Assembly (NCBI GenBank): GCA_008369845.1
Contig: MRSU01010563.1
Span: 1-34,926, forward strand
Direction: 5' to 3'
Source: Trichomonas gallinae
Lineage: Eukaryota
DNA: 34,926 nt
Shown here: one piece after another, positions 1,168 to 26,209 of the stretch
Layout: each line of letters starts with the position of its first letter
How positions within the stretch are numbered: position 1 is the first letter of the stretch
Position numbers and translations under genes: made by a program
The notes under the pieces: generated by a model
What the model was told of the DNA's origin: nothing
Database searches by the model: none
What the model saw: the letters and a program-made list of their open reading frames with translations, nothing else

Positions 1168-1944
1168 ATAGCCAAATTTCAAAATGGGATCTTTAATTTT
1201 AGAGTTATCCATGATTACACATGTTCTATTGGTACAGAATTAAGTGAATCAAATGAAGTTGGAAATGCTTTAAATGTAAATGTTCCACAAAACACACATA
1301 TTGATATTCCATCATATGCCATATACAAAGATAGAAGTTATATTGTAACTGAAACCGCATTATTTGCTTTTCGAGGTTATTCAAATATTACTTCATTCCA
1401 TATCCCGAAAACAATCAAAATATTACGATGAGATGCATTCGCTTTCACATCTATTACAAAAATATTTATCCCAAAAACAGTTGAACAAATGTTGCGTGCC
1501 CCATTTTCTGGTTGCAAAAAATTAACTAAAGTAGAATTCGAGTTCGGTATCAGTATAACATACCTCGGCGGTGACATATTTTGGAACTGCATTAATTTAA
1601 ATTTTGTTATACTTCCAATATATATAAAGTTTACTAATAATACGTTTAAGGTTTCTAATTTATCAAAACTTTATGTATGCAATATAGATGCTGTTGAAAA
1701 TGATTTTAATCAATTTAAAAATGCATACAATATTCCTACTATATACGTGCGAAAATGTTACAAAGGCACAACATTCATGGGAAAAAGTTTCACAAGAATG
1801 ACAGAAGATTCAATTTGCTTTTACAATAAACCTCTCGAAAATACATCATACGATGATCAGTTCTTCAGCATTTTCCCATATTTAGCAATAATGCCAATCT
1901 CAACATGCATTGATCAGCAAATTTTTGTCCTTGCTTATTCTTAA
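1168..1944 (+). pseudogene. BspA-like (TpLRR) leucine-rich repeat gene with no initiator ATG and one internal TGA
   Basis: Frame 1 reads IAKFQNGIFNFRVIHDYTCSIG...YIVTETALFAFRGYSNITSFHIPKTIKILR*DAFAFTSITKIFIPKTVEQMLRAPFSGCKKL. The TGA at 1429-1431 is in frame with the track ORF 1489-1944. Confidence 0.8.
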
Positions 1945-2266
1945 TTTTGAAATTTTGAACTACCAAGATTTGTCACAGTTTGAAAATATCTATTACAAAT
2001 AATAATAAAAAAATTAGTAAAAAAGAGAAAGAATTTATTCAGATGTATTGCAAATGTTTACAGAAAAGTTATGCACCATCTATGCAAACAGAAAAAGATC
2101 AGATTGCACAACATAGAATGATTCAATATAGAACTCATCTTGCTGTACCATGATAGCTATATTACAATGAGCTCAAATAGTTCTAATATTTTTAAGTTCA
2201 TTCTTACAGAAGATAGAAAAATTCATTAAAAAGTTTGAATGAATAAATTTATTTGAATTTAATTCA

Positions 2267-2908
2267 TTATGCGTTGTAAGGATTTTTATCCATGTTGCTT
2301 GGTGGATTCGGCGCAACATAAGGAGTATCTTGTGATTGAACTAACTGTTGAGTGGGAGCTGGCTGTACATTATTGATATTAATAATGACGTTTTGTTCTT
2401 GTTTTGGTCCATCGACAAAAGACATATATTGCTCTTCTCTTTCTTCCTCAATTTCGGAATAATCAAAGCATGATCCCGCATTAAGGCAAAAGCACTGAAC
2501 AATGATATAAATCATTCCACCAATGCCAACGAAAAAGAGAACGAAAGGGTAAATAAATGGCCAGAAAAGCAGAATACAGCAGCAACTATTTTCAACATAT
2601 TCATCTTCAAGATGAGAATTTCCATGCTTATCGGTAACTATGTAAGTGTTCGTCTTTCTTTCACAACAACATGAGTCAATCCACTTGTCCCAAAGATACC
2701 TTCTCACCTTAGGCCAGCTGTAATGAAAAGCATGCGGATTGATTGCCCAACCAACTAAGGTGAGGACAAACAATATACCAATGAGGACGTATATGCATAT
2801 TTGTAGGATCAAGTCTTGCTTCTTCTTTTTGTCTTGGTTATCATCTGCATTGTGAGATGGTGTAATAGTTTCATTGCAGCATGTGAATGCAAGAAACAAT
2901 AAGAACAT
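2267..2908 (-). CDS. Hypothetical membrane protein (signal peptide, two TM segments, Cys clusters, Pro/Gln tail ending NPYNA)
   Basis: Hydrophobic N-terminus MFLLFLAFTCC, two long hydrophobic stretches, SCCC motifs, and a TCACT initiator just upstream of the ATG. Confidence 0.8.
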   Translation of the reverse strand: MFLLFLAFTCCNETITPSHNADDNQDKKKKQDLILQICIYVLIGILFVLTLVGWAINPHAFHYSWPKVRRYLWDKWIDSCCCERKTNTYIVTDKHGNSHLEDEYVENSCCCILLFWPFIYPFVLFFVGIGGMIYIIVQCFCLNAGSCFDYSEIEEEREEQYMSFVDGPKQEQNVIININNVQPAPTQQLVQSQDTPYVAPNPPSNMDKNPYNA

Positions 2909-3180
2909 TTGCTTTCAAGTGAAATATTACGGCAGATCAAATTGAGAAAGGATTGAATTATGAACTTCCTTTCAAATGATATTTAAATTGTAATTATACA
3001 TATCTCGATGTTTTCACAAACGATTACTAACAATAGAATGATATTGAAATAGCATAAGATTAAAGTTTAAATTGAATTTTTCATTTTAGAATATGAAATG
3101 TTACTCGAAGTAAAGTTGAGTTGAATTCAAATTATTGGGGGTTTTAGCAGTTTTTCAATTTAAAATATGATTGATTTTAA

Positions 3181-3560
3181 TTATTGTTGATGACATAATT
3201 CAATATTCATGAAAAATTTAATCATTGCATTCAGATAGCTTTTTGAATGATTGACAGAAATATTATTTACAGAAATATGTAATAATATTTTTATAATAAT
3301 AATAAATATATCAATATCATCATCCTTTTCAATGTCAAATGTTTTCAAAACTTTGAGAATGCTTTGGTTAATCCGAATTATCAACGTTTCACTTTTGTTC
3401 ATACCATCAATGAGTGTTGTGAGAATGATATTATAAAATCATTTCAATATATGTAACTTTTCATTAACATTTTCATGGTACAAACTCTCATTGCAATACA
3501 TTAAAAATGAAACACTCAAATGATGTTTTAAACAATTTTGTCACTAAAAATAGGCAATGT
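3181..3560 (-). pseudogene. Possible decayed helical-repeat (HEAT/ARM-like) gene fragment
   Basis: Short amphipathic ORF at 3181-3402 with coding-like but stop-interrupted sequence upstream. No diagnostic motif. Confidence 0.2.
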
Positions 3561-4667
3561 TATCAATCATTTATGCAGATATACAAAATGATTTTAATAA
3601 AAAAAAATCATGAAAAGGATTTAAGTTATACATCAACATATAGAATAAGATTCTGATAAAACTTTCTTGCTAAAAAAAAATTTAATTTTTCCCCAAAATT
3701 CTACAGATAAGACCTATTGCTTTTATAACACGCTGGATGAAGGAATGAAATAAAGTACCATAACATTTTATACATCTTTCAACAGAATATCAAACAATAT
3801 TTATGAAATGTACAAAATTCTATCTTATTACCAAAATAAACATGGAATGATGATGTATAATGTAAAAGTCACAATAATCTTTCATACGAACCAAAAAATC
3901 TAAAAAATGCCCAATTTTGAAACAAAATATATTTGTTCACTCTAGTAACAGGTAATGATTGTTTATATTCACTGGAAATTTAATGACAAGATTGAGTATC
4001 TAAGATGGAGAACCATTCACAAAATAGGTCAACGAATGAAAATTAATTTACAATAAATCATCATCATCAAAAAGTGACATCTTCTCATTTTTCATCATTT
4101 TTAAAACTCGGGATATCACATACCATAATTGCGACACCATTATTCCTTAAAACCCCACTTTCAAATCATCAGAAACAAAAAAATTAAATAATCAACCAAG
4201 CCTCAGTTCAAGACAAAACTCAGCTGTTCTGTAACGAAATGCGGAACGAAAAGCGACAGATTTACATGTCAGATTTGACACGTAAAGTGTCCAAAAGAAA
4301 CACTATAGACAGGGGGTGCATCCATTTTGTCACTTTTCAAATGATTTTGATGCTGGATTGTGAAATAAAATACTAAACTTTTGAGATAAAGAGTTTCCAG
4401 AAATATAAGAAGATAGTATCAGCATCAGACATTGCGCCTGAAGCAAGTTGAAACTCTTTCATTTTATGACGAAGACTGGTAAGAGCGAATTCCATTTGTC
4501 TTCAGCGTGATTTAATTTATGTAAAAACAAAATTATGTCAAAAATCATATTTTTACATTTTGCAAGATTTAGAACGATTTGCCCGGGTCCAACGAAGATT
4601 CCACACTTTTATTTTGGCCATATTTGAATTCAGTACTGTGTAAAATCTATGATTATCAGACTTTTCA

Positions 4668-4931
4668 TTCCAATATGTATAAAATTTATTTCAGAGACCT
4701 TTAAGGTTTCTAATTTATCAAAGCTTTATATATGCAATATAGATGCTGTTGAAAATGATTTTAATCAATTTAAAAATACATACAATATTCCTACTATTTA
4801 CGTGCGAAAATGTTACAAAGTCACAACATTCATGGGAAAAAGTTTCACAAGAATGACAGAAGATTCAATTTGCTTTTACAATAAACCTCTTGAAAATACA
4901 TCATACGATGATCAGTTCTTCAGCATTTTCC
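4668..4931 (+). repeat. Direct 264-bp duplicate of 1613-1876 (3' part of the BspA-like pseudogene)
   Basis: Collinear and near-identical from ttccaata to cagcattttcc. It accounts for track ORF 4649-4945 (FKVSNLSKLY...DDQFFSIF). Confidence 0.95.
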
Positions 4932-5661
4932 GAGTTCAATTATAAAATCATTGATTTTATCCTATACAACTAAATATTCAATACTTTGAGCTGTAAAAAT
5001 TGCATCATATTCTTTAAAGAATATAAACTTTTCGAGGATTGAATTCATAACGTCTTTAGTTAGATTTAATTCAATATGATGAACAATTTTTTGGGAAAAT
5101 ATCAAAAAATATATTCAAGACATATGAAATAGTAGTGAAGTTGTTTGCCGAATAATTGATTAATTCAAATATTTCAGATTTTAATAATTCATCGCATTGA
5201 TTATTAGCTAAGCAAAATATGATATGCGCAATAGCTTGAAGCTGTTTCTATAGAAAATAATTTTAAATCATATTTGGAAGTGTTATGATATTTATATGTC
5301 AGCTATAATTCGTTTATGAGTATCATAAGCAAATACAAGCACTATAAAAAAAGTTAAATATATTGATGAATTGAAGATATGAGAATTATTTGCCGTATCT
5401 TGATACTATGTATTATCAAATATCCATATTTATTGAATGAATTTTTATAAAATTTTTGACGATCAACGAACACAAAACATTTGCGATCCTAGATTTTATT
5501 TCAAAAATATCTTATGTCTTGTGAAAATAATGATATTGCTTTAGAAGAATCTTAGGAATTATTCATTAGTTATTTAATTCAAAAGGTAATGAAATTCAGG
5601 TCTATTGAAATTTGATTTGATTTTTTTTTGTTGTTGTTGATCGTCAAATCATTTTTCAAGA

Positions 5662-6153
5662 ATGACTCTCTTCCTAACTAATCACACAAAGTTGTACGTG
5701 CAAATAAGGAGCGTAGAACTAGGCACATACGCTGCAACAGATAAAGCAGAATTAGTTTTATGCGTTGGAACAAAACATCACATCCATGATTATCCTTACA
5801 AATTCAAATCAGGAAATAAACATGACGTAAATCACACATGGACATTCAATATAGTTCATCCTCAGACCGGTGAGTTCTATGTTGTACTTTACAAGCACCA
5901 TTTACTTGGTGATAAAGAAATTGGTCAACTTGGCTTCTGCGTTGGCGGATTTACAAAGAATACTGTCGTTTCTAAGAAATTTATGCTACAATCAGCCAAC
6001 ATAAATGCAATGCCAGCTACAGTTGAGATGGATATTCATATTTGCGCTGATGGATCGCATGCTTTTTACGCTCCACAGGGTGAAATATCAGATAGTGCAA
6101 TCATCCAGACTTCTCATCATTTTGGTGAGCCGGAAAGCAAAATTGCTCTATAA
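5662..6153 (+). CDS. Single C2-domain-like protein, paralog of 28880-29359
   Basis: Beta-strand pattern LYVQIRSVEL...HTWTF...VVLYKHHLLGDKEIGQL. TCATT initiator at 5649; the stop codon forms TAAA. Confidence 0.75.
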   Translation: MTLFLTNHTKLYVQIRSVELGTYAATDKAELVLCVGTKHHIHDYPYKFKSGNKHDVNHTWTFNIVHPQTGEFYVVLYKHHLLGDKEIGQLGFCVGGFTKNTVVSKKFMLQSANINAMPATVEMDIHICADGSHAFYAPQGEISDSAIIQTSHHFGEPESKIAL

Positions 6154-6401
6154 ATATTTGTATTTTATTTAAAATAATCGTTTTTATTATTGATTTATAT
6201 AATATACTTAATAAAAATTATAAATTTAGTAATATTTTTTGGATAAAACGAAACATCAGAAAAATTTGATAATTTGGATAAAAATAGTTGATGTTTAATG
6301 AATATAAATATTATTAGATACATTAACTAAATATTATAAGAAATAATAGTGTTTGCGTTAAAATTAAAGAGTTTTGATAAATTTATAAAATAAAAGTCTT
6401 T

Positions 6402-6451
6402 GTCACTTTTTAAAATTTTGTCACGTTTTTAAAACGATTATTGTCACTTTT
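6402..6451 (-). promoter_or_regulatory. Cluster of AAAAGTGAC (GTCACTTTT) promoter motifs upstream of the CFAP100-like gene
   Basis: Exact copies at 6402 and 6443, variant at 6420. AAAGTGAC is a described T. vaginalis upstream motif. Confidence 0.7.
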
Positions 6452-6469
6452 GAAAATTTATACGTTTAA

Positions 6470-7792
6470 ATGTCGTTCTCCAGTCTATCATTTGGTGAAC
6501 GAGCTGCAAACCCTTTTAAAATATCAGATCCGTGCAATGTATTCGGATCTAAAGAAGCTGATGAGCTTAAAGTTAAAGCAAAGCGAGAAATTTTACAAAA
6601 TTTGACATTAAAAGAACGAGCAGATTTATTAACATCACCAATACCAACATGCCATAATTCACAACAAAGAACACGCGTTCCTTCGCAGGTTGGTTCACCA
6701 AGTGGCACAAAACGAAAACATAAACAAGAATCGGCAAAGAGAATGTCGGAATTCATTCAACAAAAGCGTGAAGCATACTTAATGCAGCTTATTATTGATT
6801 CAAAAAACGAAGAAATTCGTAAAATTTACTCAACAATGTCAACAAGCGAGAAAGAATACGAAGAAACAGAAACAACACAAGCAGATCTTGCTACAAAATA
6901 CAAACTTATCTCATCGCAAAGTGAAAATTTAGTTGCTAGGCAAAGAAAAAATACCGAATATGCAAATTCTCATAGAGTTGAGCTTGCAAAGAAGCTCAAG
7001 CAGAAACAACACGAAATATCAACAATACAATCAGATATATCGAAAAATGAAGAACTTTTGGAGCAATATCAAACATATTACGAATTCTTAGATGATTTTA
7101 AACCAAAAGACAGACCAATAGAATATTACTATGATAACCCTTCAAAATTAATGGATGAAATGGATAAATACGAAAAACAAAACTTATTCTTAATCGAACA
7201 ATACCAATCTATAAGTAATCAGTTGGAAAAAGACAATGCAAACTATGCAGCTTCTATAAAAGAAATCCAAAATGCCGTGGATATTTTAGAATCTAAAATA
7301 GATAATAGAAATCCATTAATAGATTTCCAGAAATCAGAGCAAAACTTACAAATAGAACTTTCCCACATACAAACAGAGATAGATTACTTGTATGGAATTG
7401 TAAGAAACATGTATATCCGCTTATATAAAGGAGATCCAAAATTGAATGCGATGCACATGCTTCAGAAAATAGATGCGGACTTAGAAACAATGTATGCTGA
7501 CTCAGAGAATCTCAGCCGAAGGTTCTTCAACGAAAAACAAGCAATTTTAGAGAAAAAGAGAAGAGAACAGCAAAGATTAGAACAGCAGAAAGAGATTCAA
7601 CGCGCAGCACAAGAAAAGAAAGAAGCAGCTCTAGCACGTGCAAATCGTCCTGTGCAGAAGAGAATTGGTAAGCCGTTGATGTATAGAACAACTTTGAAGA
7701 AAGTGGTCAAGAATGATGACGAAAAACGACGTAGACAAGAGGCTGAACAGAGGAGGATTGATAAATTGTTATTTGGTGATGATTTTGATTGA
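6470..7792 (+). CDS. Coiled-coil flagellar protein, CFAP100/CCDC37-like (DUF4200)
   Basis: EFIQQKREAYLMQLIIDSKNEEI, EKQNLFLIEQYQ and C-terminal ALARANRPVQKRIGKPLMYR resemble CCDC37/38 family motifs. Long coiled coil. Confidence 0.75.
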   Translation: MSFSSLSFGERAANPFKISDPCNVFGSKEADELKVKAKREILQNLTLKERADLLTSPIPTCHNSQQRTRVPSQVGSPSGTKRKHKQESAKRMSEFIQQKREAYLMQLIIDSKNEEIRKIYSTMSTSEKEYEETETTQADLATKYKLISSQSENLVARQRKNTEYANSHRVELAKKLKQKQHEISTIQSDISKNEELLEQYQTYYEFLDDFKPKDRPIEYYYDNPSKLMDEMDKYEKQNLFLIEQYQSISNQLEKDNANYAASIKEIQNAVDILESKIDNRNPLIDFQKSEQNLQIELSHIQTEIDYLYGIVRNMYIRLYKGDPKLNAMHMLQKIDADLETMYADSENLSRRFFNEKQAILEKKRREQQRLEQQKEIQRAAQEKKEAALARANRPVQKRIGKPLMYRTTLKKVVKNDDEKRRRQEAEQRRIDKLLFGDDFD

Positions 7793-8079
7793 AATTATCA
7801 GATAATTATTTTTGTTTGTAATATTTTATAAAATTGTTATATTTAATACTTTTTTGAACAAAAAAGTTTATTTCTTTTCTTTATTTGTTTAATCTTTGTG
7901 TTGAAATGGAATATTTAAGTTATTTGACATATGTCAGATTTAATGTTTTACATCTGACACTTTACAACTATTGGAATTTTTTTAACTTTGATATGTTACT
8001 ACACCTCTTTTTTTCTATATTAAAGATCTTTTTAAACAGTGTTTATATATTGTACATCAGCTAACATAAGGATGTCGCA

Positions 8080-8132
8080 AGGTAACCCACCCACCTGTTT
8101 GGCGATACCCCAGGGGGAAAAGTGGGTTACCT
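8080..8132. other. GC-rich intergenic hairpin (11-bp perfect inverted repeat)
   Basis: AGGTAACCCAC (8080-8090) pairs with GTGGGTTACCT (8122-8132); inner CCTG/CAGG stem. Confidence 0.8.
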
Positions 8133-8225
8133 GTCAAAAATATGTTTTTAAACAATTTCCTTTGCTTTAACTTACACATTTTCTTTGAATCAATTTTTCT
8201 ATTTTTGATTTTTTTTTTTGCAATT

Positions 8226-8443: not shown

Positions 8444-8445
8444 AA

Positions 8446-11773: not shown

Positions 11774-14773
11774 TTAAATCTGGGTTATATACCTGGAAAT
11801 ATGTGACTTAAATAATTGACTAATTTCACTTTCTTCGTATATCAATTGTTTTGAATAGTTGACTAAAAATTCAATTATATTTTTTTGTGGATTTTGTTCA
11901 ATGGATAAATATAGAACATACAAACTTGTGGTTGATTCGCTTGGCTTCATAGCACTCTTATTGTATTGAATTAAATTCGAAATCAGAGATTTGAACAAAT
12001 CAAAATATTCCTGAATTATAGAATTTTGATTCAGTTGCGCAAGACAAATATTCTTCAAAAGATTAAGCGATTTCAAGCAATAAGGCAATGATTTGAATAT
12101 TTCAAGAAATTGAACATGATAAGGTGTATGTCCATCAATGAAGAAAATTTCAAGAATCATTGGAATGAATTCTTCTATTTTGATTTTTTGTTGAATATAG
12201 TTTGTTAATGCTTGAATAAATTCTTCTGCATTATTTCCTGTTTTTAATACATAAAATGCCCATCTAAGTAATGAAATTGGCTTGATTGAATCAAGTGAAT
12301 ACAAATGAGCTTTTGATTCAAAATATGAAATCCAGTATTTTTCATTATAATTTAACAATGTTTTTTCTAATTGATGCATATAAAAGAATACTGCTTGCAA
12401 ATTTTCGCTAGTTTCGAGCATTTCTTTTCCATTTTCTCTGTCCTGTAGGTATTCTATATATTTTCGCTGTACATTTGATTCCATCATCAACAAAAGATTG
12501 TAGCAAAATAATAAATTTTCTTCTGGAAATTCTACTGTATTAATCATGAATGACAAGCTACCAACTAATACATCCAAGGAATTCAACATCAGTTTTGAAA
12601 TGTAGATTCGATCAAATAGCATGAATTCGAGCTTGAAAAATTGAAAATTCGGAACATTTCCTTTTTGAATAATATGACCAATAATCGCCGATGCTAAATA
12701 ATGCAAATCATAATCATACGAGTCAAAAGTCGAAACATAATTTAATAAATTACATACTGTATTAATTATTATTGCAAATTTTTCATTAATGACTAAATTT
12801 TTCTCCAAGTTCTTCAAAATTAGTTTGAAGGAGATTGTGATGTTGTCAAAAGTTCTAAGAGTAATACAATAATATCTATTTTCTTTTGCATTAAGTCTAC
12901 AGCAATATTCTGCTAATTCATCCATTGGTGTGTCAGATTCCAAATAAAATACTTCAATATCTTTTCTCAAATAATTCAAAACTGCATCAATTAAATTTGT
13001 GCATAACTGAACCACATAACTTGCATCAATTTCAGCAATATGTTGCAATGCTTTGTCTATTTCATCAAGAATTAATAAATCAGATTCCAGAAGATTTTTT
13101 TCTAAAATTTTATCACAAAAGGCTTTAATAAATTTGTCATCTTGAAAACTATTATATTCGATTAATGAAATAACAGATGCACAATGCATTGCACTAATAT
13201 AATCACCTGCTGATAAACAATCATTATCTAATACATTAATTGCTAAACCAAAGATCTTTTCAGCATTACCAAAATTCTCTTCTCTAAATAAATCGAATAA
13301 AACAGGAAACAAATCAAAAATGCATGGCAATAATTCATTATTGGATATCATTTCATTGATAATTGCTTGTTGCAGTTCGCATGTTAATTTAATCCATTCT
13401 TGGTGAATACTTCCGAAACTACAAACTGACATCAAAAGTTCTTTAACTATAATTATTTCCTCCTCTTCGCAAATTCTATGTGCTGTATTATTCATAATTT
13501 CATATGCAATATTAAGATCATTTGTATTCAATATATTTTGTGATGATGTTTTCTCTAAAAACTGCGCACAAATTAATCTTAAACTTGCATCATCACAATT
13601 TAATGAATTAATTATTTGTTCACTAAAAACGGTTTTCAGTGATAAATGTGTATATGTTGAAAAATAAACAAAACACTCAGTGACTATTGCCAAGGCGCAT
13701 TTGACATGGTTAATATCTTCATTAGCTTGCGATAAAAATTCTATTAACCAGGCTGTGAATTCGACGTTAGATGCATAAAAATCTGTAATTATAATCATAA
13801 CATTCATCGCGTCAATCAATAAGGATTCATTTTGGGATTCATCTAATGAAGGATCATAAGATTCAACTACTGATAAACAAAAAGAAAACAAGAATTCTGC
13901 AATAAAACTTTGAACAAAATCAATGCTTATAGATTCATTAAAACAAATGAAATAATGAGTAATGCAGATCATAATATTTCTAATAGATTTCTCAGTTCCA
14001 TGTTTTGCAATTATGTTTGTAAATAGTGTAATAAAATCTTGAGCTGATTCTGATAAAAACTTGCACAAAGAGTTGAAATATGTGTCAAAAACAGACAAAA
14101 GTTCAACAAATAAATTTTCATCTTCTGATATGTTACTAAAAAGATTATAAATATATTCTACATAACTGCTCATATCGAATTTTTGGGATAAAACTAGTAT
14201 CAATGGAACAATTGCTATGTGAATTTCTGCATGAGTTTCTGCATTATTGATAAATGTCTGCAAAATATTATTGAATATTTCAGGATTGTCGAAAACAATA
14301 TTTGATGATACTGATATCACTAAACTTTGTAATGATGACTTTACTATATCTAAATTTGGTGATTCAAGGCCTTTTATAAATAAATTTAATATTATTGGTG
14401 AAAATTTCATAATTGAAGTCGAAACAATAAGAAAGTGTGATATAATTTGTCTAAAATTTGGTTCTATTTGTTCATTTAAATAAATACTCGCAAAAATTTC
14501 GAAAATTTGGTTTTGAAAAAAATCTTCTGTTAAAATGCCTCTAATTTCATCTGATGATTTAACTTTAACTGTGAGTAAGATTAATGAAGCTTTTCGAAGC
14601 ATTAAATCTTGACTCTGAATAAAATGTAATAATAAATTAGCAGCTTCTAATGGATTACTTGCAACATATTCGTTAAACAGTTTTTCACTGGCAATTCTTT
14701 GATCATTATCATCAGATATCAAAGAATTTAAAACAAGATCACGAAATGTTTTTTCATCCATATAATTATCCAT
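11774..14773 (-). CDS. Large HEAT/ARM-repeat protein, importin-beta-like
   Basis: 999-aa acidic, all-helical ORF. N-terminal LISDDNDQRIASEKLFNEY resembles karyopherin-beta HEAT1. Confidence 0.65.
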   Translation of the reverse strand: MDNYMDEKTFRDLVLNSLISDDNDQRIASEKLFNEYVASNPLEAANLLLHFIQSQDLMLRKASLILLTVKVKSSDEIRGILTEDFFQNQIFEIFASIYLNEQIEPNFRQIISHFLIVSTSIMKFSPIILNLFIKGLESPNLDIVKSSLQSLVISVSSNIVFDNPEIFNNILQTFINNAETHAEIHIAIVPLILVLSQKFDMSSYVEYIYNLFSNISEDENLFVELLSVFDTYFNSLCKFLSESAQDFITLFTNIIAKHGTEKSIRNIMICITHYFICFNESISIDFVQSFIAEFLFSFCLSVVESYDPSLDESQNESLLIDAMNVMIIITDFYASNVEFTAWLIEFLSQANEDINHVKCALAIVTECFVYFSTYTHLSLKTVFSEQIINSLNCDDASLRLICAQFLEKTSSQNILNTNDLNIAYEIMNNTAHRICEEEEIIIVKELLMSVCSFGSIHQEWIKLTCELQQAIINEMISNNELLPCIFDLFPVLFDLFREENFGNAEKIFGLAINVLDNDCLSAGDYISAMHCASVISLIEYNSFQDDKFIKAFCDKILEKNLLESDLLILDEIDKALQHIAEIDASYVVQLCTNLIDAVLNYLRKDIEVFYLESDTPMDELAEYCCRLNAKENRYYCITLRTFDNITISFKLILKNLEKNLVINEKFAIIINTVCNLLNYVSTFDSYDYDLHYLASAIIGHIIQKGNVPNFQFFKLEFMLFDRIYISKLMLNSLDVLVGSLSFMINTVEFPEENLLFCYNLLLMMESNVQRKYIEYLQDRENGKEMLETSENLQAVFFYMHQLEKTLLNYNEKYWISYFESKAHLYSLDSIKPISLLRWAFYVLKTGNNAEEFIQALTNYIQQKIKIEEFIPMILEIFFIDGHTPYHVQFLEIFKSLPYCLKSLNLLKNICLAQLNQNSIIQEYFDLFKSLISNLIQYNKSAMKPSESTTSLYVLYLSIEQNPQKNIIEFLVNYSKQLIYEESEISQLFKSHISRYITQI

Positions 14774-14846: not shown

Positions 14847-14989
14847 CAAAATGATTCTTATTCATTGACGCGATGAATGTTATGATTATAATTACAGATT
14901 TTTATGCATTTAATGTCGAATTCACAGCCTGGTTAATAGAATTTTTATCGCAAACTAATGAAGATATTAACCATGTCAAATGCGCCTTG
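14847..14989 (+). repeat. Inverted duplicate (about 143 bp) of 13691-13834, an internal coding segment of the importin-like gene
   Basis: The reverse complement of 13691-13834 matches with about 5 substitutions and 1 indel by manual alignment. Confidence 0.95.
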
Positions 14990-15046: not shown

Positions 15047-16180
15047 TTACATAAAAACGAAAACAAAGACTTGAATAATCTTCATATTATGTATCTGAAC
15101 GTATTCAATTCTTCCAGTAGGATATAATGGACCTAGGTATGTGATAGCAGCTTCGCCATTTCCCGAATGGCCATTGGTGGTTATTTTAGGATTGAGGCTA
15201 GTTGGCATTGGATATTGACCATCGAGCATTTTGCCATCATGGAAGTAAAATCCTGAAAAGTGGAACATACTGTTTATGCTGTTCATGTCCGCTTCAACGG
15301 GAGAAGGAGACATACAGCCTTTGTATCCACTTATATAGGAATTTCCTCCTGCTGAAGAGGTTTCAGTTCCCCATTTCGTGGAAAAAATGGTGAAATCCAT
15401 TCCACCTCTATATCCAGACCCGCAGCCTGCTGATGATCCTCCAATATCAACGCCATAGTCCTTACCTGTGCATCCAATGCCTAGATTGCCAAAAGTTTGA
15501 GTTGCACCTAGCGATCTATCACTAACATTTTTTGATATTAGATCACCTCCATTCCCACCTTTATATAATCTATAGTGTGTGTTTATTTCGGTGCCATTTG
15601 TGGAACATGCACCACCTCCTGATCCCGCGACAATGATGCGACTTTTAATTGATTTTTGGAAAAGTGACGTAGTATTGTCAATTTTGTTCATATCATAGTA
15701 TACTAGGCGAAGATCGACTGCTCCGCCTCCACCCGCGCCACTTTCCGAAAAATTGTAGTCTCCTGTGTCTATTCCTGCATTTCCACCTCCATTCCAGCCT
15801 CCAAGGCTTCGAACGAGCTCTCCATGCAAGTATGAGGTTTGATCTTGGCCTTTCCCGCCGATGTAAAGGAAAAATTTTGTCGTAGATGGAATCCAGATCT
15901 CACCACTGACGTAAGAACCTTTTCCGCCAGAATCAGGATGCATAATTATTTCATTTTGATATCTTGCATCACCGCCTTGAGAGCCCCAAAGTTCGACAAA
16001 ATATCTGCCTTTTTGGAAAGTTACTTCGTATGGGGTGCATTTTGTAGTACTATTGCAAGGATAATTAAATACGTATTTATTTTCTCGTTTTGTAACGTTT
16101 TCTGTTCCTAATTCTTTGGAATATAGCGAATAAGTTAGCTTTGGTGTCCGTGCTGCTATACATAATACTAATATCAACAC
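15047..16180 (-). CDS. Glycine-rich (ALK/LTK-type Gly-rich domain) surface-type protein with no in-frame ATG at its N-terminus
   Basis: GRYFVELWGSQGG, GGKGSYVSG, YIGGKG, GAGGGGAVDLR, RIIVAGSGGG, GGNSYISGY; hydrophobic C-tail. The frame opens with GTG after TGA; first ATG is at 15943 (residue 80). Confidence 0.8.
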   Translation of the reverse strand: MLILVLCIAARTPKLTYSLYSKELGTENVTKRENKYVFNYPCNSTTKCTPYEVTFQKGRYFVELWGSQGGDARYQNEIIMHPDSGGKGSYVSGEIWIPSTTKFFLYIGGKGQDQTSYLHGELVRSLGGWNGGGNAGIDTGDYNFSESGAGGGGAVDLRLVYYDMNKIDNTTSLFQKSIKSRIIVAGSGGGACSTNGTEINTHYRLYKGGNGGDLISKNVSDRSLGATQTFGNLGIGCTGKDYGVDIGGSSAGCGSGYRGGMDFTIFSTKWGTETSSAGGNSYISGYKGCMSPSPVEADMNSINSMFHFSGFYFHDGKMLDGQYPMPTSLNPKITTNGHSGNGEAAITYLGPLYPTGRIEYVQIHNMKIIQVFVFVFM

Positions 16181-16410
16181 TCATGTATGTTATGGGAAGC
16201 CCATGTATTTTGAGAATAAAAATTTTTATATGTCATGTAAATATTAAATATGTCAAGTAAATAATACATTATGTTGTGTAAAATATTACATGTCAAATTG
16301 CTCAAGAAATGTAAAGAACTTAAAATTGATTTAAATCATATTAACCTATGTATGGTGTGTTAAAAATAATAAGAGTTAATTAAATATCGTTAAATTTATT
16401 TATATTACAA

Positions 16411-18929: not shown

Positions 18930-20393
18930 AATTTTTTAAAATAAATAATATTGAATAGATAATTGAAAAAATTTAGTGTATATTTGTAAAATATAAAGTG
19001 CAGGAATGATATATGTGTAAAAATTTTGAGGCCGCCGTTTCAGGAAACTATACAAAATTTGTTCGCAGTGAAGCTATGAATTCTTTTTGTATGCATTGAA
19101 AAGTAAAACCAATCGTAAATTTTAAATATGCTAATAGACAACTAAAGGGTATTATAGTTGTTTATTCAAACCGCTAGAAAACTTTTTTTTTTGCTTTTTT
19201 TACAACTCAACTCAAAATACAGGAAACTCACCAATAACAATACGCAATCCGATGTTGCGTCTTGGCCGCGAAATTCAAATATGCTTTATTTGTTAATATT
19301 TGAACAGTTGTAATAACAAATAACATAATGTCTGCTCATTCATAATTTTCCAAATCAAATTTAATTCAACAAAAGTGACTACATTTTGTTTCGATCTCTA
19401 TTCTTGCTATGTTTACAGTTAGTTAATGCGCGTTTTTCATTTGAAAGAAAGATTTTTGATTTGAGATGATGAATACATGTTATTCCTATCATTAGGCATC
19501 AACGTATTAAAAAAATCAATTAAGCCTGATTTTTATGCTTCGATCTCAAATTTTAATTAAATTAATCATCATATTGTACCAATAAAAGGAATATCGCATT
19601 TAATTTTTAAAACTCGAATTCTCATACAATTTTGATCCGTAAAATTATTTTTGTTCGCTGATGACTTCTGTGTTCGATATATTTTATATAAACTAGAAGA
19701 GCTCATTCAAAATTTTATGTTCATCTTAAAATAATTGAAAGATGACAAAGAATTTATTTGAAAAGACTAAATTTACTTTCAATTGCAAATCTCAATATTT
19801 GTATATAATCGTGAATTAATTTTATGCTGAATAGCTCACTAAAATGAGTCAGAGGTTCAATATTGGTCGACCAAATTAAATTTTCAAAGTGATGAACAAA
19901 AATATTTACGTTTACCTTTTATGATTCATTAATGCATACATTGAAATATGCAAATAAAATAAACAACATTTTTTTCAATAACATAAAATTCAATTCAATT
20001 TTTACCCTTCCAGATTTCTCTTGCTCACCTATTATTTTCTGCATTTTTAATATTTAAAATTATTTTTATTATTTCACCGAAAAACCTTCTAAAATAATTT
20101 ATTTTTATCATTTTCATTATTTGCATTGTTATAAAAATAATTTTAAATAATCTAAAATACTTATATTTATATCTAGATTCGTTTTTACACTTTATAACAA
20201 TCTTTATTCAGTATTTCTCGTAATATCAAATAATTTTCTTTTCTGCGATTCAATGTTTGCAGCTTCCCTACGTCGCTGTGTCATACCTGTAATTTATTGA
20301 ATCTTTTCACAAGATTCGATTCTCAACCATTATAATGCTACACATGACATTTTTTTTATGAAGAAACAAATTTCAAATAAGTCTGTGAATTAA

Positions 20394-22823
20394 ATCAATT
20401 TAGTTGATAATGGACAAACACTTACATACTTTAAGGGCTCAACCACAGGTGTTACTGTTCCTGCAACTGTTCGAACCATCTATGGAAAATCAGCTACAGA
20501 TTATTGCTGCAAAGATGTAACAGATAAACTCAGAGAATGCATATTTGCAGAAAACTCGAACTTAGACACAATAGGATCTTATGCTTTTTACAATTGTTCA
20601 AAATTAGCCTCAATTGATTTTAGACCTTGCACAAAATTACGCCTAATAAAAGAATATGCTTTCCAATACTGTTCACTCTCTTCAGTCAATTTTCCAGAAG
20701 GAATAAAAGAAATACAAACATTAGCATTTTCTTTCAATAAATTACAAACTCTAAGTTTACCAGCAAGTTTAGTTACATTGGGATTTTCAGCTTTCGGAAA
20801 AAACGATTTACTTCAATCCGTAGCATTTACTCCAAATTCGTTATTGGACAGTCTTCAAGTAAATATTTTCTTTTCCAGTAGTCTAACTTCATTTATTGTC
20901 CCACCAAACGTTCAATCGATAAATGGGCTCGCATTCCAAGAGACAGGAACAATTGTGTCCATATCTGTTGATCCAGAAAATAAATATTTCAAAGACATTG
21001 ACAAAAAAGCAATTTACAACCAAAATGGAACAGCTATTTATTATTTTGCGTCAGGTATAACTGGAGAATTTACAATTCCTGAAGGAGTGTTGGAAATTCA
21101 AAAAGGTTGCTTTACTTCTTCGCATTTAACATCTCTCACGCTTCCAAAAAGCATAAATAAAGTTTATGATTTTGCTTTCATGAGGAGTTATATTACAAAC
21201 TTTAATATTGATGATTCACTCAATTCAATTGCAATTGGCGCTTTTGAATATTCATGGAATTTAATCAGCATTCAATTACCATCATCGCTCACGGAAATTA
21301 GCACGAGGTTGTTCAAATATTCAAGAATAGAATCAATTGTTATTCCAGATAAAGTCACAAAAATCGGTGATTCAGCTTTCGAATATTGCAAATATTTGAA
21401 AAATATTTCTTTACCATCAAATCTAAAAAGTCTTGGAGATAATGTTATAGCTTCTTCACCTTATGCAAAATTTATTTTCCCGCCAGACTCAGGTTTATAT
21501 GTAAGCGATGATCAACTAATTATGGATAAGCTAAATACGACAATTTATTTATATCTTGACAACAAAAACACTGTAAATATTTTACCAACAATTTTAACAA
21601 TAAAAGGTTCTGCGTTCAGAGATAAAGCAGAGTTAGTTACAATATCTTGTTCTGGTTCTCCACAATTACAAAATATTGGAGAATATGCGTTTTCTAGCTG
21701 CAAGAAACTGAAAAATTTCATTAGTTTTTCAACTTTGGCTACCATTGGAGATTATGCTTTTCAAAACACAAAAATTAGTCCTTCTCTAATTTTTGGATCT
21801 CAGTTAACATCAATAGGTGTTAATGCATTCATTGGACTTGATATATCATCAATATCTTTCAATTCTGTTAATCCTTTGACTATTTCTGATTCTGCTTTTA
21901 TGTATTGCTCGAAAATCACAGAAATACAATTTAACTGTCGGTCAGATATAAATTTAAAAAATTCCGTTTTCAGCGGTCTCAGTTCATTAAATACAATTAC
22001 TTTGTCTGACGAAATCAAAACAATTGGATCTTTCTGTTTCTCAAATTGCAGTTTAACAAGAGTCAACTTCGAATCAGCAACTTTTGGACCTGGAGTGTTT
22101 CCTCAAGGTTTATTCGCAGATTGTAAAAATCTTGAAACAATAAACATTCCGACAAACATAACAACACTCGAAAGCCAATGTTTCCAAAACAATAAACTCC
22201 GAAGAATAAGTTTGCCAGTTGGCTTATATGAACTTGGTAGACAATGCTTCAAAGGTTGCTCCTATTTATCTGAAATAATTATTCCTGACAATTGTGCATT
22301 GCAGCTGATTAATGTTGGAGTGTTTGACGGATGCACTAGTTTGTCTTCATTCAGCGATTTTGTATCTGGCTATTTTGTTGTTGACTCGGGAGCTCTTTAT
22401 AACAAACAAAGAACAAACTTGATCGTTTATCCACCAGCTTCACCAAATAATTTCTTCGCCGTTGCATTTTCTGTTACAACTATTTCAGAGAGTGCTTTTA
22501 TTGGATGCATCAACCTTCAAACGATCCTCATTCCTGATGGAAGTGTTACAAGAATTGGAAGCAGTGCATTTGAAGGCTGTAAGAACTTAAAATATATCAA
22601 TATTCCAATTTCTGTAAAAGAAATTGGCGAAAATGCTTTTTTGGGATGCAACAAACTTAACTGTGGACAAATAATTCAAAATAGAACAGTTGAATTTCGT
22701 CAAAAACTTATCCGTGCAGGCATCAATCCAAAGTCATTTAAGGACTGTGAAGTTGTTACATGCAAAGTATCATCATATACATATTTGAATGTATTTATAA
22801 TCCAGGTATTTATACTAATATAA
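20394..22823 (+). CDS. BspA-like (TpLRR) leucine-rich repeat surface protein, 809 open codons, no N-terminal ATG
   Basis: Many LxxIxIPxxVxxIgxxAFxxCxxL repeats. The frame is open from 20394 (INLVDNGQTLTYFKG...LDTIGSYAFYNCSKL). ATG 20358 is cut off by TAA 20391; next ATG is at 21180. Hydrophobic C-tail. Confidence 0.88.
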   Translation: MNLVDNGQTLTYFKGSTTGVTVPATVRTIYGKSATDYCCKDVTDKLRECIFAENSNLDTIGSYAFYNCSKLASIDFRPCTKLRLIKEYAFQYCSLSSVNFPEGIKEIQTLAFSFNKLQTLSLPASLVTLGFSAFGKNDLLQSVAFTPNSLLDSLQVNIFFSSSLTSFIVPPNVQSINGLAFQETGTIVSISVDPENKYFKDIDKKAIYNQNGTAIYYFASGITGEFTIPEGVLEIQKGCFTSSHLTSLTLPKSINKVYDFAFMRSYITNFNIDDSLNSIAIGAFEYSWNLISIQLPSSLTEISTRLFKYSRIESIVIPDKVTKIGDSAFEYCKYLKNISLPSNLKSLGDNVIASSPYAKFIFPPDSGLYVSDDQLIMDKLNTTIYLYLDNKNTVNILPTILTIKGSAFRDKAELVTISCSGSPQLQNIGEYAFSSCKKLKNFISFSTLATIGDYAFQNTKISPSLIFGSQLTSIGVNAFIGLDISSISFNSVNPLTISDSAFMYCSKITEIQFNCRSDINLKNSVFSGLSSLNTITLSDEIKTIGSFCFSNCSLTRVNFESATFGPGVFPQGLFADCKNLETINIPTNITTLESQCFQNNKLRRISLPVGLYELGRQCFKGCSYLSEIIIPDNCALQLINVGVFDGCTSLSSFSDFVSGYFVVDSGALYNKQRTNLIVYPPASPNNFFAVAFSVTTISESAFIGCINLQTILIPDGSVTRIGSSAFEGCKNLKYINIPISVKEIGENAFLGCNKLNCGQIIQNRTVEFRQKLIRAGINPKSFKDCEVVTCKVSSYTYLNVFIIQVFILI

Positions 22824-23220
22824 GAAATATTTTCACTATATTATAGTATATAAAAAATAATATGACAGCTTTAATTAATGCTTCAATATTTTCATCTGCA
22901 ATTTAATTGTTTTTGTAAAGATGCTAGATTCCACTTCCATACCTAATATCCAATAATTTGGATATTCTGGTGTGACATTCTCACCTCCATTTTGAAATAT
23001 TTAAATTATAATTCTTAATAATAATGAGGTAGCGTTTATTAATGCTTCAAAAACTATACATCTAACAATTTTTATAATTTTGATATCTAGACTCTATTTT
23101 GAAGACTTTTTAGTTGCTTTTTCTATCAATAGAGGTCATCCTTGGTCATTTAGTTTAGCAAACCTTGTGAATTGAAAAGTGACAGTTGGGATAATGATTT
23201 GTAAAAATTATGCATGATAA

Positions 23221-24147
23221 AATATAGATAATACATTAGATGTATGGAAGTATTTCTTTAAAACTAAAAATCCTGCTGTTTCAACTGGTAATAATCCCAA
23301 TATCAAATATAATGAAAATATGGATATATTATTATCATCATTTTTATATTTAACGTATCGAGCGATTGAAATAACTTCCAGTAATGTTAACTTATGTATA
23401 AGTTATTCGTCTTTCATCGATGATTCTGCAGCTACAAACGAAAATATCAGTGCAGGAGCAGTAGGAATGTCATCTGGAAAGCGCTTTTTCGTATTCAACA
23501 CAGTGTTCAGCGGCTGCCAAACATATCTAAAAAATGGAGGCCAAACATTCAGAATAACGAATGTGACAAATAAAACAGTTATCGGCGCGTCACTTTGTAG
23601 AAATGGCAAAGAATATCTGCCATCTGACACTTTACAATACAAAACCGTTTTTGTTTTTGATTACGACAATTTAGCATTCCAGGAGACAAACACATCTTAT
23701 AATGAAGTCTACGAAAAATGTTTTGGACATTTCAATTATGTCGATGGATATATTTCGTATTGCAATTTTAATAATGCAAAATCTTTTCAAAGTGGTCTAT
23801 ATTTAGTAAATGTTAGTGCAATATATACATTTTGCAATTTTATCAATAATAATATAACAAAAAACGAATTAATAAGAACTGATCTTAAAGATGTCTATTT
23901 TTTGAATTCAAATTTCAAAAATAATAATGCACCACAATATTTTAAAAGTTACACAGATAACAAAGCCATTTTGTATAGTTGTGATTCAGATAGTTATAAC
24001 AATGCTACAACTATTAATTCTTTTTCGAAAGATATGATTTTTAAAATAACATACCATGTTCATAACACTGAATGTTCAGTTTATAATGACGATATTTATT
24101 TGAATAACTACATCATTATGCTGTATTCCATTGTAATTATTCTATAA
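23221..24147 (+). CDS. Right-handed beta-helix (Pmp/pectin-lyase-like) surface-type protein, tandem paralog A
   Basis: Repeated CNFxNN/SNFKNN and AGAV/GGQ motifs; hydrophobic C-tail. Similarity to paralog B extends upstream of ATG 23320 to 23221 (NIDNTLDVWKYFF). Confidence 0.65.
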   Translation, partial: NIDNTLDVWKYFFKTKNPAVSTGNNPNIKYNENMDILLSSFLYLTYRAIEITSSNVNLCISYSSFIDDSAATNENISAGAVGMSSGKRFFVFNTVFSGCQTYLKNGGQTFRITNVTNKTVIGASLCRNGKEYLPSDTLQYKTVFVFDYDNLAFQETNTSYNEVYEKCFGHFNYVDGYISYCNFNNAKSFQSGLYLVNVSAIYTFCNFINNNITKNELIRTDLKDVYFLNSNFKNNNAPQYFKSYTDNKAILYSCDSDSYNNATTINSFSKDMIFKITYHVHNTECSVYNDDIYLNNYIIMLYSIVIIL

Positions 24148-24435
24148 TTTTTTTTTTTTCATATGTATCAATAGATGATAGAATTAAAGCATAGTGTTTG
24201 ATAAAAGTAGGAGTATTAAAGTATAAATTTATAATTTACTGATTTTATAAATGATGATTTAAAATTTGATAATTTAATATACTTGTCAATGATATAGCTA
24301 CGCCAGAATGCGATAAACTAATAATTTTTAAACAAATATATAGTCACAAATGCAGAATTTAAGGAAATAATCCAAGACAAATAATAATAAAAAGTGACAT
24401 ATTTGAATATAAAAAATGCAATTTCAACACGATAG

Positions 24436-25371
24436 AATATAGATAACGCATTAAATGTATGGGAGTATTTCTTCAATATCAGGAATGCAGCAAAAGTCAC
24501 TGGAACCAATCCATCGTTAGCATGTGAAAATTTAAATTATGATATTTATTTGTCATCATTTTTATATATATCAAATAGAGCAGTTACATTAACAACGAAA
24601 AATGCCAATCTCTGCATCAGTTATTCATCATTTGTTGGAAATTCCGTGCCGAAGGAAGATATTGAAGGTGGAGGCTCAATTTTGATGTCAAATGGCAACA
24701 ATTTTTTCCTTTTCCAAACAGTTATCACTGAATGTCTAACAGAATCAAAATCCGGAGGCCAAGCATTTAGAGTCACTGTTCCAAATAAAACGGTTATAGG
24801 TGTCACTTTCTGTCGCAACGGCAAATATTCTGAGTCATCTAAATCAATTGATTGCAGGACGACTATAGTTTACGACTATGGAATTCTTGCTTTCCAAGAA
24901 TCTAATTTCACAAAAAATGAAGTTATAGATAGATGTTTTGCGCATATTTTCTCTCTCGATGGTTATATTTCTTATTCAAATATTAATAACTGCAAATCAT
25001 ATGAATTTGGAAGTTATATCTTTAACTGCTCGCTTATATTAGTAAGCTGCAATTTCATAAATAACCAAATAGTAACAGAAGAAATATTTAGAATATTGCA
25101 TAAAGATATTTATTTTATAAATTCAAATATAAAAAATAACCAAGCATCATCTTACTTTGGATCATTGACAAATAATAGAGCATTACTATACAATTCTGGC
25201 ATTGATAATACTAATAACAATCAATATTTTGAAATTATTAATGAATATGAACTCACACAAAACTATAAAATAATTTATAAAGTTCATAAAAAACAATGTT
25301 CCAATTGTGATGTCAGCATTCATTTTAGTATGTATATTTTTATGTTTTATTCAGTTGTTTTATCTATTTAA
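24436..25371 (+). CDS. Right-handed beta-helix surface-type protein, tandem paralog B
   Basis: Collinear with paralog A (NLCISYSSF, GGQxFR, NKTVIG, CRNGK, LAFQE, DGYISY, CNFINN). The frame opens at 24436 (NIDNALNVWEYFF); first ATG is at 24685. Confidence 0.65.
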   Translation, partial: NIDNALNVWEYFFNIRNAAKVTGTNPSLACENLNYDIYLSSFLYISNRAVTLTTKNANLCISYSSFVGNSVPKEDIEGGGSILMSNGNNFFLFQTVITECLTESKSGGQAFRVTVPNKTVIGVTFCRNGKYSESSKSIDCRTTIVYDYGILAFQESNFTKNEVIDRCFAHIFSLDGYISYSNINNCKSYEFGSYIFNCSLILVSCNFINNQIVTEEIFRILHKDIYFINSNIKNNQASSYFGSLTNNRALLYNSGIDNTNNNQYFEIINEYELTQNYKIIYKVHKKQCSNCDVSIHFSMYIFMFYSVVLSI

Positions 25372-25630
25372 ATATATTATATGTCAAATAGCTGCTAAAA
25401 ATATGTTTAAAATCTTAATTTCATCATTTTCTTCTCTGTCTTCCAGCTAAAAAGTTTCTGCAACTTCTTCTTCACTTTGGATTTGATAATTCTGTATAAT
25501 ATATAACCAATCGCTGCAAAGCACCCAATCTAATATGGATCTGGTTTATAATCAACCTAGTTATATTGTATCTTATCCTATCTACGAGTTAGATTTTTCA
25601 TGATAAAAGTGAGCGTATTTTTTTTTGTAA

Positions 25631-26209
25631 ACTTACTTGATAAGAATCCTACCATCAAAAAATGGTGATTTAAACGGACTAACACTACGTTATCCAACTC
25701 TCTTTGCTTACACTGCTGATGGCGTATTTAAACCTCATTATAACATTAAATTTCTTTTTGATAGAAATAATAATAGTGAGTGGTGCTCTGCATATGCTGA
25801 TAATCAGAGCTTTTCTATATATATTGCAAATGGCGCATATATAACACCCACAAATTATACATTTCATGTTGGAGGATATTCCGATCCATATTTTGCTCAA
25901 AATTGGACTATATCTTGTTACTATAACAGTAACTGGACTATAATAGATAACGTGATTAACAATACAAGGATAAATAAAAACCATGTTGCTGAAACGTTTG
26001 AAATTTCTAACATAACAACATGTTCAGCTGTCAATTTCAGAATGAATGGATTGTCTATGTATAACGGACTAATATGGTGCATGACAACAATGGAAATATT
26101 TGGTGAAATTTCATTCGATAAAGGAATGAGGTTCTTTTGCGATACATGTAAACATGTTCCAATCTACCAAATGAAATTTAGCTACGTCTACGTCTTGATC
26201 TTGATTTAA
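25631..26209 (+). CDS. F5/8 type C (galactose-binding-like) domain protein with C-terminal hydrophobic tail and no N-terminal ATG
   Basis: LFDRNNNSEWCS, ITPTNYTF, QNWTI, WTIID, MEIFG pattern. The frame opens after TAA 25628; first ATG is at 26042. Confidence 0.65.
   Translation, partial: TYLIRILPSKNGDLNGLTLRYPTLFAYTADGVFKPHYNIKFLFDRNNNSEWCSAYADNQSFSIYIANGAYITPTNYTFHVGGYSDPYFAQNWTISCYYNSNWTIIDNVINNTRINKNHVAETFEISNITTCSAVNFRMNGLSMYNGLIWCMTTMEIFGEISFDKGMRFFCDTCKHVPIYQMKFSYVYVLILI

What the first reader, a model, noticed from the sequence alone, without database searches (positions are those of the whole stretch)
1168..26209. A class of 'headless' surface-protein genes: six tail-bearing ORFs from four families all lack an initiator ATG
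Seen: the frames at 1168(+), 16180(-), 20394(+), 23221(+), 24436(+) and 25631(+) each open straight after a stop codon. Their first in-frame ATG lies 107, 79, 262, 33, 83 and 137 codons inside recognisable coding sequence. Five have no other lesion. They encode LRR, Gly-rich, beta-helix and F5/8C domains and all end in a hydrophobic tail. The roughly 13 other genes here (kinases, Myb, SNM1, C2 and others) start with a normal ATG. Inference: random decay should not confine damage to the 5' end of one functional class. Candidate explanations are (a) silent cassettes recombined into an expression site that supplies ATG plus signal peptide, as in antigenic-variation archives; (b) a leader added by trans-splicing; (c) non-AUG initiation (ATA, ATC, TTG or GTG occurs in the first 1-4 codons of each, weak evidence in AT-rich DNA); (d) readthrough or frameshift from short upstream ORFs.
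Basis: partly seen in the sequence, partly recalled or inferred. Interest (0 to 1): 0.9.

Follow-up and report, generated by a model that had tools for sequence, protein, structure and literature searches.

The report
Trichomonad surface genes without ATG starts
In this trichomonad parasite genome all six genes for proteins with a hydrophobic tail lack the usual ATG start, yet their reading frames stay open and those tested are under purifying selection, so they are likely translated from near-ATG codons, which would mean many surface genes of these parasites are annotated too short.

Summary
Six of six tail-bearing frames have no ATG at their 5' end (first in-frame ATG after 107, 79, 262, 33, 83 and 137 codons); all 13 other genes start normally. 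The DNA is from a trichomonad. A relative in run X1 (about 92-95% identical) keeps the covered frames intact. For the F5/8C gene it shares the TTG-ATA start and shows pN/pS of about 0.3, so assembly error and old random decay are unlikely. Homologues mostly have no signal peptide, and their Met aligns with that TTG: only the ATG is missing, not a leader. No shared recombination block or consistent splice acceptor was found, which weakens the cassette and trans-splicing ideas. T. vaginalis shows a similar pattern: 14 of 16 glycine-rich homologues are annotated from an internal Met. Best reading (0.5): initiation at near-cognate codons (UUG, GUG, AUA, AUC). No RNA or protein evidence was available. 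One published test found no alternative starts in T. vaginalis, and the 5' flanks lack a canonical Inr, so start-loss silent genes remain a real rival (0.25).

The parts
1168..1944 (+). BspA-type LRR gene with weak hydrophobic tail; frame opens on ATA; one internal TGA at 1429-1431; first in-frame ATG at 1489
15047..16180 (-). Glycine-rich (ALK_LTK_GRD) tail-bearing gene; frame opens GTG TTG ATA; first in-frame ATG at 15943
   Evidence: X1 contig covers 15030-16176 without gaps
20394..22823 (+). 809-codon BspA-type LRR gene with Cys + hydrophobic tail; frame opens on ATC; first in-frame ATG at 21180; in-frame upstream ATG at 20358 closed by TAA
23221..24147 (+). Tail-bearing gene of unnamed family; ATA at codon 2; first in-frame ATG at 23320; in-frame upstream ATG at 23194 closed by two stops
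24436..25371 (+). Paralogue of 23221 (49% identity); ATA at codon 2; first in-frame ATG at 24685; the X1 orthologue was also called from that internal Met
25631..26209 (+). F5/8C (CBM32-like) tail-bearing gene; TTG at 25637-25639 aligns with the Met of homologues, ATA follows; first in-frame ATG at 26042
1117..1124 (+). AAAGTGAC (M2) upstream motif; also at 23176 and 24391, as AAAGTGAG at 25606, and before ordinary genes such as 8436
   Evidence: motif named in PMC4223856

Best explanation
These six genes are likely functional genes for predicted tail-anchored surface proteins that are likely translated from a near-cognate codon (UUG, GUG, AUA or AUC) at the position where homologues have Met. 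Shown: the class lacks ATG; five frames are otherwise whole; three genes (25631, 16180, the 23221/24436 pair) carry a purifying-selection signal; in the F5/8C gene the TTG occupies the homologous Met column and is shared with a relative. Inferred: transcription, translation, the exact start codon in the other five genes, surface location, and a low or regulated output. The proteins would need no added leader, because most family members have no signal peptide. The 1168 gene has a further internal stop and may be decaying.
For: (1) Class association 6/6 vs 0/13. (2) Random decay expects 351 stop-producing site equivalents against 18 ATG sites; the chance that ATG is the first hit in five genes is about 3.5e-7 (assumes an ancestral ATG and equal rates). 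(3) X1 orthologue of 25631: one contig spans the gene, TTG ATA unchanged, no ATG or stop gained, pN/pS 0.27-0.35 overall (p 0.0009-0.007). (4) 16180 body vs X1: pN/pS 0.32-0.39, p 0.0005-0.003, codons 132-365 only. (5) Paralogues 23221/24436 at dS 1.2-1.8 have dN 0.35-0.39 before the first ATG and 0.43 after, and both keep AAT ATA GAT; the X1 orthologue of 24436 was called from the internal Met. (6) Six of 14 aligned homologues other than the X1 protein begin with Met in the column of the TTG. (7) The predicted CBM32-like domain spans residues 1-161 at block pLDDT 78-96; the first Met (138) ends the second-last strand. (8) A near-cognate codon lies in codons 1-3 of all six, ATA in codons 1-4 of five, against 3.4% ATA per codon. 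(9) T. vaginalis: 14 of 16 glycine-rich homologues are annotated from residue 74-164, against 7 of 103 from other sources; TVAG_016810 and TVAG_039300 show stop-AAA-ATA/ATT followed by open coding sequence before the annotated ATG (read by eye).
Against: No RNA, ribosome or peptide data for these genes. Woehle et al. [quoted passage not shown] None of the six has a canonical Inr (TCAYW) within 40 nt, against 6 of 13 ordinary genes, and all six have upstream ATGs, against 3 of 13 (p=0.003) and a 56% background: the flanks look more like unselected DNA. Selection on the pre-ATG part of 25631 alone is not significant (pN/pS 0.39-0.50, p 0.055-0.14), while the part after the first ATG is more constrained (0.11-0.15). 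Any ATG point mutation gives a near-cognate codon, so the codons alone do not separate use from loss. The X1 protein P0163 was written with Met on a TTG, so some homologue 'Met' starts may also be TTG/GTG, and the T. vaginalis contrast is confounded by different gene callers. T. vaginalis BspA genes include many ordinary pseudogenes, and two experimentally studied ones (TVAG_240680, TVAG_073760) have ordinary ATG starts. The start column is established for one gene only.
Confidence: 0.5

Rival explanations
1. Start-loss silent genes: loss of the ATG is the tolerated (or favoured) first lesion in redundant surface families, and the genes are untranslated relics or a reservoir for recombination.
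For: No canonical Inr and no depletion of upstream ATGs in the six flanks; an internal TGA in the 1168 gene and a 5'-truncated copy of it at 4668-4931; many BspA pseudogenes in T. vaginalis, with the reservoir idea already voiced (PMC2843621); thousands of transcribed pseudogenes lacking start motifs (PMC4223856).
Against: The TTG start of 25631 is shared with X1 at about 0.13 synonymous differences per site while pN/pS is about 0.3 and no stop arose (3.4 expected, P0=0.03); ATA is shared by paralogues at dS above 1; four unrelated families share no 5' recombination block.
Confidence: 0.25
2. The ATG is supplied at RNA level, by a short 5' intron of the 23-28 nt type B kind, split-intron trans-splicing or editing.
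For: GT-AG stretches of 25 nt (16180) and 27 nt (23221) would join a nearby ATG in frame. Type B introns have variable motifs (PMC12316389); a trans-splicing capacity in T. vaginalis is cited in PMC13548475 (the cited paper was not held). The X1 copy of 25631 has ACTAAC just before the frame.
Against: Among GT-AG joins under 50 nt, none rescues 20394 or 25631, and those at 1168 and 24436 start from ATGs inside the frame and cut out coding sequence; the 23221 donor is absent in its paralogue; no strict branch site at any of the six 5' ends and a relaxed one at one. Editing would need different chemistries for TTG, GTG, ATA and ATC.
Confidence: 0.12
3. Ribosomes start on an upstream ATG and enter the frame by readthrough or frameshift.
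For: All six have an ATG within 40 nt; four have one in frame. Readthrough has been proposed for Trichomonas from long transcripts (10.64898/2026.08.31.748405).
Against: One to three stops would have to be passed; frames differ among genes; a 4-nt insertion in the X1 leader of 25631 changes the upstream ATG's frame; tagged tests found no readthrough (PMC4223856); the parts of the preprint read give transcript, not protein, evidence.
Confidence: 0.07
4. The genes are translated from the first internal ATG as shortened proteins.
For: The 55 codons after the first ATG of 25631 are the most constrained part; 23221 would lose only 33 residues.
Against: It would remove nearly the whole F5/8C fold, the start of the glycine-rich domain and three LRR_5 stretches, and leaves the conserved pre-ATG segments of the paralogues unexplained.
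Confidence: 0.04
5. Assembly or base-calling errors at the 5' ends.
For: A T-run before 25631 differs in length in X1; the window's own reads were not available.
Against: An independent data set has the same ATG-less start at 25631 and an internally called orthologue of 24436; neighbouring genes are clean.
Confidence: 0.02

Closest known systems
T. vaginalis BspA-like family, non-TMD subfamilies with conserved Cys and hydrophobic C-termini (PMC2843621)
   Same: LRR_5 repeats, Cys motif about 20-30 residues from a hydrophobic end, often no detectable signal peptide.
   Different: In the passages read the paper notes eight proteins without a starting Met and 98 pseudogenes, but no class-linked ATG loss or non-AUG start; its own table shows many annotated ATGs inside open LRR sequence.
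Eukaryotic non-AUG (near-cognate) initiation (review PMC5666671, seen as search listing only; otherwise recalled)
   Same: Codons one base from AUG at the expected start; constraint on the segment before the first AUG.
   Different: Usually an extension of an AUG-started protein or a uORF in scattered genes (recalled); here it would be the only route to full-length protein, tied to one structural class across four unrelated families.
Silent antigen archives (trypanosome VSG, Borrelia vls, Anaplasma msp2; recalled)
   Same: Surface-protein families with copies that cannot be expressed in the ordinary way.
   Different: Four unrelated families interspersed with housekeeping genes, no shared 5' homology block, lesions confined to the start, orthologues kept under purifying selection.
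Trichomonas 'split'/readthrough genes and type B introns (10.64898/2026.08.31.748405; PMC12316389)
   Same: Apparently broken but transcribed genes, rich in BspA.
   Different: Those have internal stops, frameshifts or introns between annotated halves; five of the six genes here are unbroken and lack only the start codon.

Membership tests
BspA-like (TpLRR) proteins: 20394, 1168 | LRR_5 (PF13306) repeats above the curated cut-off | tested here: met
   461.8 bits for 20394, 36.1 for 1432-1941, cut-off 27.7
Tail-bearing trichomonad surface-protein class | Hydrophobic C-terminus, usually with a Cys motif upstream | tested here: met
   Tail hydropathy +0.71 to +2.19 in all six; Cys in the last 32 residues of five, none in 16180
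Tail-bearing trichomonad surface-protein class | Surface location of the protein | not testable with these tools
   No proteomic or localisation data
Non-AUG-initiated genes | Near-cognate codon at the homologous start position | tested here: inconclusive
   Met for 25631 (TTG in the Met column of 6 of 14 homologues); ambiguous for 16180 (homologue starts spread, median position 10); no full-length homologues found for the other four
Non-AUG-initiated genes | Coding constraint on the segment before the first AUG | tested here: met
   Paralogues dN 0.35-0.39 at dS 1.2-1.8; 25631 pN/pS 0.39-0.50, not significant alone; frames open in X1 where covered
Non-AUG-initiated genes | Initiating ribosomes or N-terminal peptide at that codon | not testable with these tools
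   No ribosome profiling or proteomics reachable
Antigenic-variation cassette archive | Shared flanking homology for recombination into an expression site | tested here: not met
   Among the 20 largest of 49 repeat families only short A/T-rich matches around AAAGTGAC, also at ordinary genes
Antigenic-variation cassette archive | An expressed, rearranged copy elsewhere in the genome | not testable with these tools
   No whole genome held
Trichomonas spliceosomal intron / trans-spliced exon | Branch site WCTAA fused to the 3' AG in a 12-nt motif, with a frame-restoring donor | tested here: not met
   0 of 6 strict, 1 of 6 relaxed (1168, where no such join restores the frame start); short GT-AG joins from an upstream ATG in 2 of 6 with poor motifs
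Pseudogenes | Neutral evolution and accumulation of stops/frameshifts | tested here: not met
   pN/pS 0.27-0.39 for 25631 and 16180; one stop in about 2,250 codons; 1168 and 20394 not tested for dN/dS
F5/8 type C / CBM32 fold: 25631 | Galactose-binding-like beta-sandwich | tested here: met
   Model mean pLDDT 85; best Foldseek match CBM32 2v72, E 9.8e-08; Pfam score below cut-off; ligand unknown
Beta-helix proteins: 23221, 24436 | Right-handed beta-helix fold | tested here: inconclusive
   No Pfam hit; three-sequence model pLDDT 30

The most novel reading that the evidence does not exclude
Trichomonas keeps a large part of its surface-protein repertoire on near-cognate start codons as a translational regulon: hundreds of genes now annotated as truncated or dead are made full length only when start-codon stringency is relaxed, giving surface variation at the level of initiation rather than DNA rearrangement.
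Probability: 0.2. Interest if true: 0.92.

Novelty: new variant of a known kind. Interest (0 to 1): 0.7.

Why it matters
If these genes are translated from near-AUG codons, a whole class of trichomonad surface proteins uses a start rule that annotation ignores. Many T. vaginalis gene models would then be too short: 14 of 16 glycine-rich homologues found here, and about 15 of 36 BspA rows in one table part read by eye, start inside coding sequence. That bears on the open questions of why this genus holds so many 'pseudogenes' and apparently leaderless surface proteins, and it is testable by re-searching existing long-read and proteomic data against stop-to-stop frames. If instead they are silent, selective loss of the start codon with a conserved body would itself be an unusual kind of archive.

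Tried and rejected
No whole genome was held, so the genome-wide class test could not be run. No RNA holder was listed; the two RNA runs laid gave no cover, which is no evidence either way. Ten window proteins were not in the exact-match collection. A 'decayed signal peptide' reading of the flanks was considered and dropped as the general explanation, because only 11 of 63 glycine-rich homologues starting in the first 20 positions have a hydrophobic N-terminus by a crude score and F5/8C homologues mostly start directly on the domain; it stays possible for 20394 and 16180. The metagenome scan gave 25 loci, mostly bacterial; two parabasalid-like loci (L002, L004) have ordinary Met plus hydrophobic leader but are distant. 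The search with the first 100 residues of 20394 gave 41 hits; the nine viewed were not full-length trichomonad relatives. The 23221 family gave one homologue. The protein atlas gave no result. The fold of 24436 could not be modelled. BspA N-terminal motifs were not found in the searchable supplements (four files not searched). Four look-ups of earlier findings returned nothing. Literature searches listed no paper reporting non-AUG starts or class-linked ATG loss in trichomonad surface genes; subscription papers are mostly not held, and Figure S1A of PMC4223856, which bears directly on the claim, could not be seen.
Full report
Setting. The window is eukaryotic, about 30% G+C, with BspA-type LRR, DUF3447, Myb, kinase, NlpC/P60 and glycine-rich genes. 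The only named eukaryotic homologues of the glycine-rich gene are from Trichomonas vaginalis. I take the organism to be a trichomonad (inference). No whole genome was held. One public run, X1, labelled bird metagenome, holds a syntenic relative whose longest pieces differ at about 3-8% of letters.

Observation. The six frames open after a stop and have their first ATG after 107, 79, 262, 33, 83 and 137 codons; the 13 other genes have it after 0-20. The tails of the six are hydrophobic and those of the 13 are not; Fisher p=3.7e-5, post hoc and with two paralogues. Only 1168 has another lesion, a TGA at 1429-1431. LRR_5, the start of ALK_LTK_GRD and F5_F8_type_C all match before the first ATG. 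The beta-helix label could not be confirmed. Random point decay offers 351 stop-producing site equivalents against 18 ATG sites, so ATG being the first hit in five genes has a chance of about 3.5e-7.

What is missing. Only the start codon seems to be missing, not a leader. Of 39 hits to the 25631 protein I aligned the X1 protein and 14 others of similar length with tails; six of the 14 begin with Met in the column of the window's TTG (codon 3), with no signal peptide. The model has a CBM32-like fold over residues 1-161, and the first Met (138) ends its second-last strand. In the glycine-rich family, 63 of 103 non-T. vaginalis hits start within the first 20 query positions (median 10) and 11 of these have a hydrophobic N-terminus; GTG, TTG and two ATA codons lie in the first eight codons, so the start there is not fixed. 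For 1168, 20394, 23221 and 24436 no full-length homologue was found (1168 was not searched). Caveat: the X1 protein P0163 was written with Met on a TTG, so some homologue starts may also be TTG or GTG.

Selection. One X1 contig spans the 25631 gene: 31 differences are listed of 34 counted, 30 in the frame; TTG ATA is unchanged, no ATG or stop is gained, and a 4-nt insertion lies in the leader. pN/pS is 0.27-0.35 overall (p 0.0009-0.007), 0.39-0.50 before the first ATG (p 0.055-0.14) and 0.11-0.15 after it. For 16180 I used 37 of the 40 rows shown (659 existed; three shown rows lay outside the gene), covering codons 132-365 and so not the pre-ATG part: pN/pS 0.32-0.39, p 0.0005-0.003. The long X1 pieces over four frames have no gap, or one in-frame 3-nt gap, while listed indels fall in intergenic DNA (12 of 23 indel rows shown). 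The paralogues 23221 and 24436 have dS 1.2-1.8, dN 0.35-0.39 before the first ATG and 0.43 after, and both keep ATA at codon 2. The X1 orthologue of 24436 was called from the internal Met and is 88% identical, which suggests that it lacks the ATG too. So for two genes the ATG-less state looks older than the split from X1, with protein-level constraint since.

T. vaginalis. Fourteen of 16 glycine-rich homologues are annotated from query residue 74-164, against 7 of 103 from other sources; gene callers differ, so the contrast is confounded. In Table S1 of PMC2843621 (5 of 57 parts and three searches seen) about 15 of the 36 rows of one part have 150 nt of open, ATG-free coding sequence before the annotated ATG (by eye), some with ESTs (TVAG_008860: 7). 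Two rows show the frame start itself: stop-AAA-ATA (TVAG_016810) and stop-AAA-ATT (TVAG_039300, marked pseudogene). The table cannot exclude a farther ATG or an upstream break; it also shows many plain pseudogenes, and two studied BspA genes have ordinary starts.

Mechanism. Near-cognate initiation is the one route that fits TTG, GTG, ATA and ATC together; ATA lies in codons 1-4 of five frames against 3.4% per codon. Splicing: short frame-restoring GT-AG joins from an upstream ATG exist for two genes only, with poor motifs, and no strict branch site lies at any start. Cassettes: no shared 5' block beyond the AAAGTGAC motif of ordinary genes. uORF recoding: upstream ATGs differ in frame, and the X1 insertion shifts one. 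Against my reading: no canonical Inr within 40 nt in 0 of 6 versus 6 of 13, upstream ATGs in 6 of 6 versus 3 of 13, the published statement that alternative starts do not appear to be used (PMC4223856; figure not seen), and the lack of any expression data. ATG point mutations also give near-cognate codons, so only selection, not codon identity, separates use from loss. I put near-cognate initiation at 0.5, silent start-loss genes at 0.25, RNA-level supply of ATG at 0.12, uORF recoding at 0.07, internal-ATG products at 0.04 and assembly error at 0.02.

Papers seen. PMC2843621: passages, first part of section 6, parts of supplement S1. PMC4223856: passages and section 7. 10.64898/2026.08.31.748405: parts 1-3 of 4. 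PMC12316389, PMC6701047, PMC7885099, PMC12612818: passages. PMC13548475: abstract and passages. PMC5666671: listing only. The VSG, vls and msp2 comparisons are recalled. Ten searches listed no report of this pattern; most subscription papers are not held.

Verdict. A real, class-linked anomaly with evidence of maintained coding function and signs of the same pattern in T. vaginalis. It works like non-AUG initiation, but membership is unproven without initiation or peptide data. Interest 0.7; new variant of a known kind.

Noticed in passing
window 13691-13826 and 14854-14989: A 136-nt piece of the 1005-codon gene's coding DNA is copied, inverted and 96% identical, into that gene's own upstream intergenic region.
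   Followed up: no
window 4668-4931: 94% identical copy of the 3' part (1613-1876) of the 1168 BspA gene, lacking its 5' part and ending before the tail.
   Followed up: partly
window 25616-25690 (run X1 copy): The X1 orthologue reads ACTAAC just before the frame start and ACTAAC...CAG near codon 20, both resembling the Trichomonas branch/acceptor motif; the window copy lacks the second AG.
   Followed up: partly
window 23214-23260 vs 24429-24475: The paralogues are unusually alike at DNA level around the frame start (first 11 nt identical) despite dS above 1.
   Followed up: partly
window 177-1007: SH3_3 + NlpC/P60 gene, of the laterally acquired peptidoglycan-hydrolase type recalled for Trichomonas; ordinary ATG start.
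   Followed up: no
window 2267-2914 (-): A membrane-type gene with ATG and a hydrophobic leader but no tail: the ATG loss is not a property of all predicted membrane proteins here.
   Followed up: partly
window 1-35: The window opens with a run of 35 A.
   Followed up: no
window 16227-16266: Several X1 contigs match only this 40-nt TGACA-rich stretch upstream of the glycine-rich gene, suggesting a repeated upstream element.
   Followed up: no
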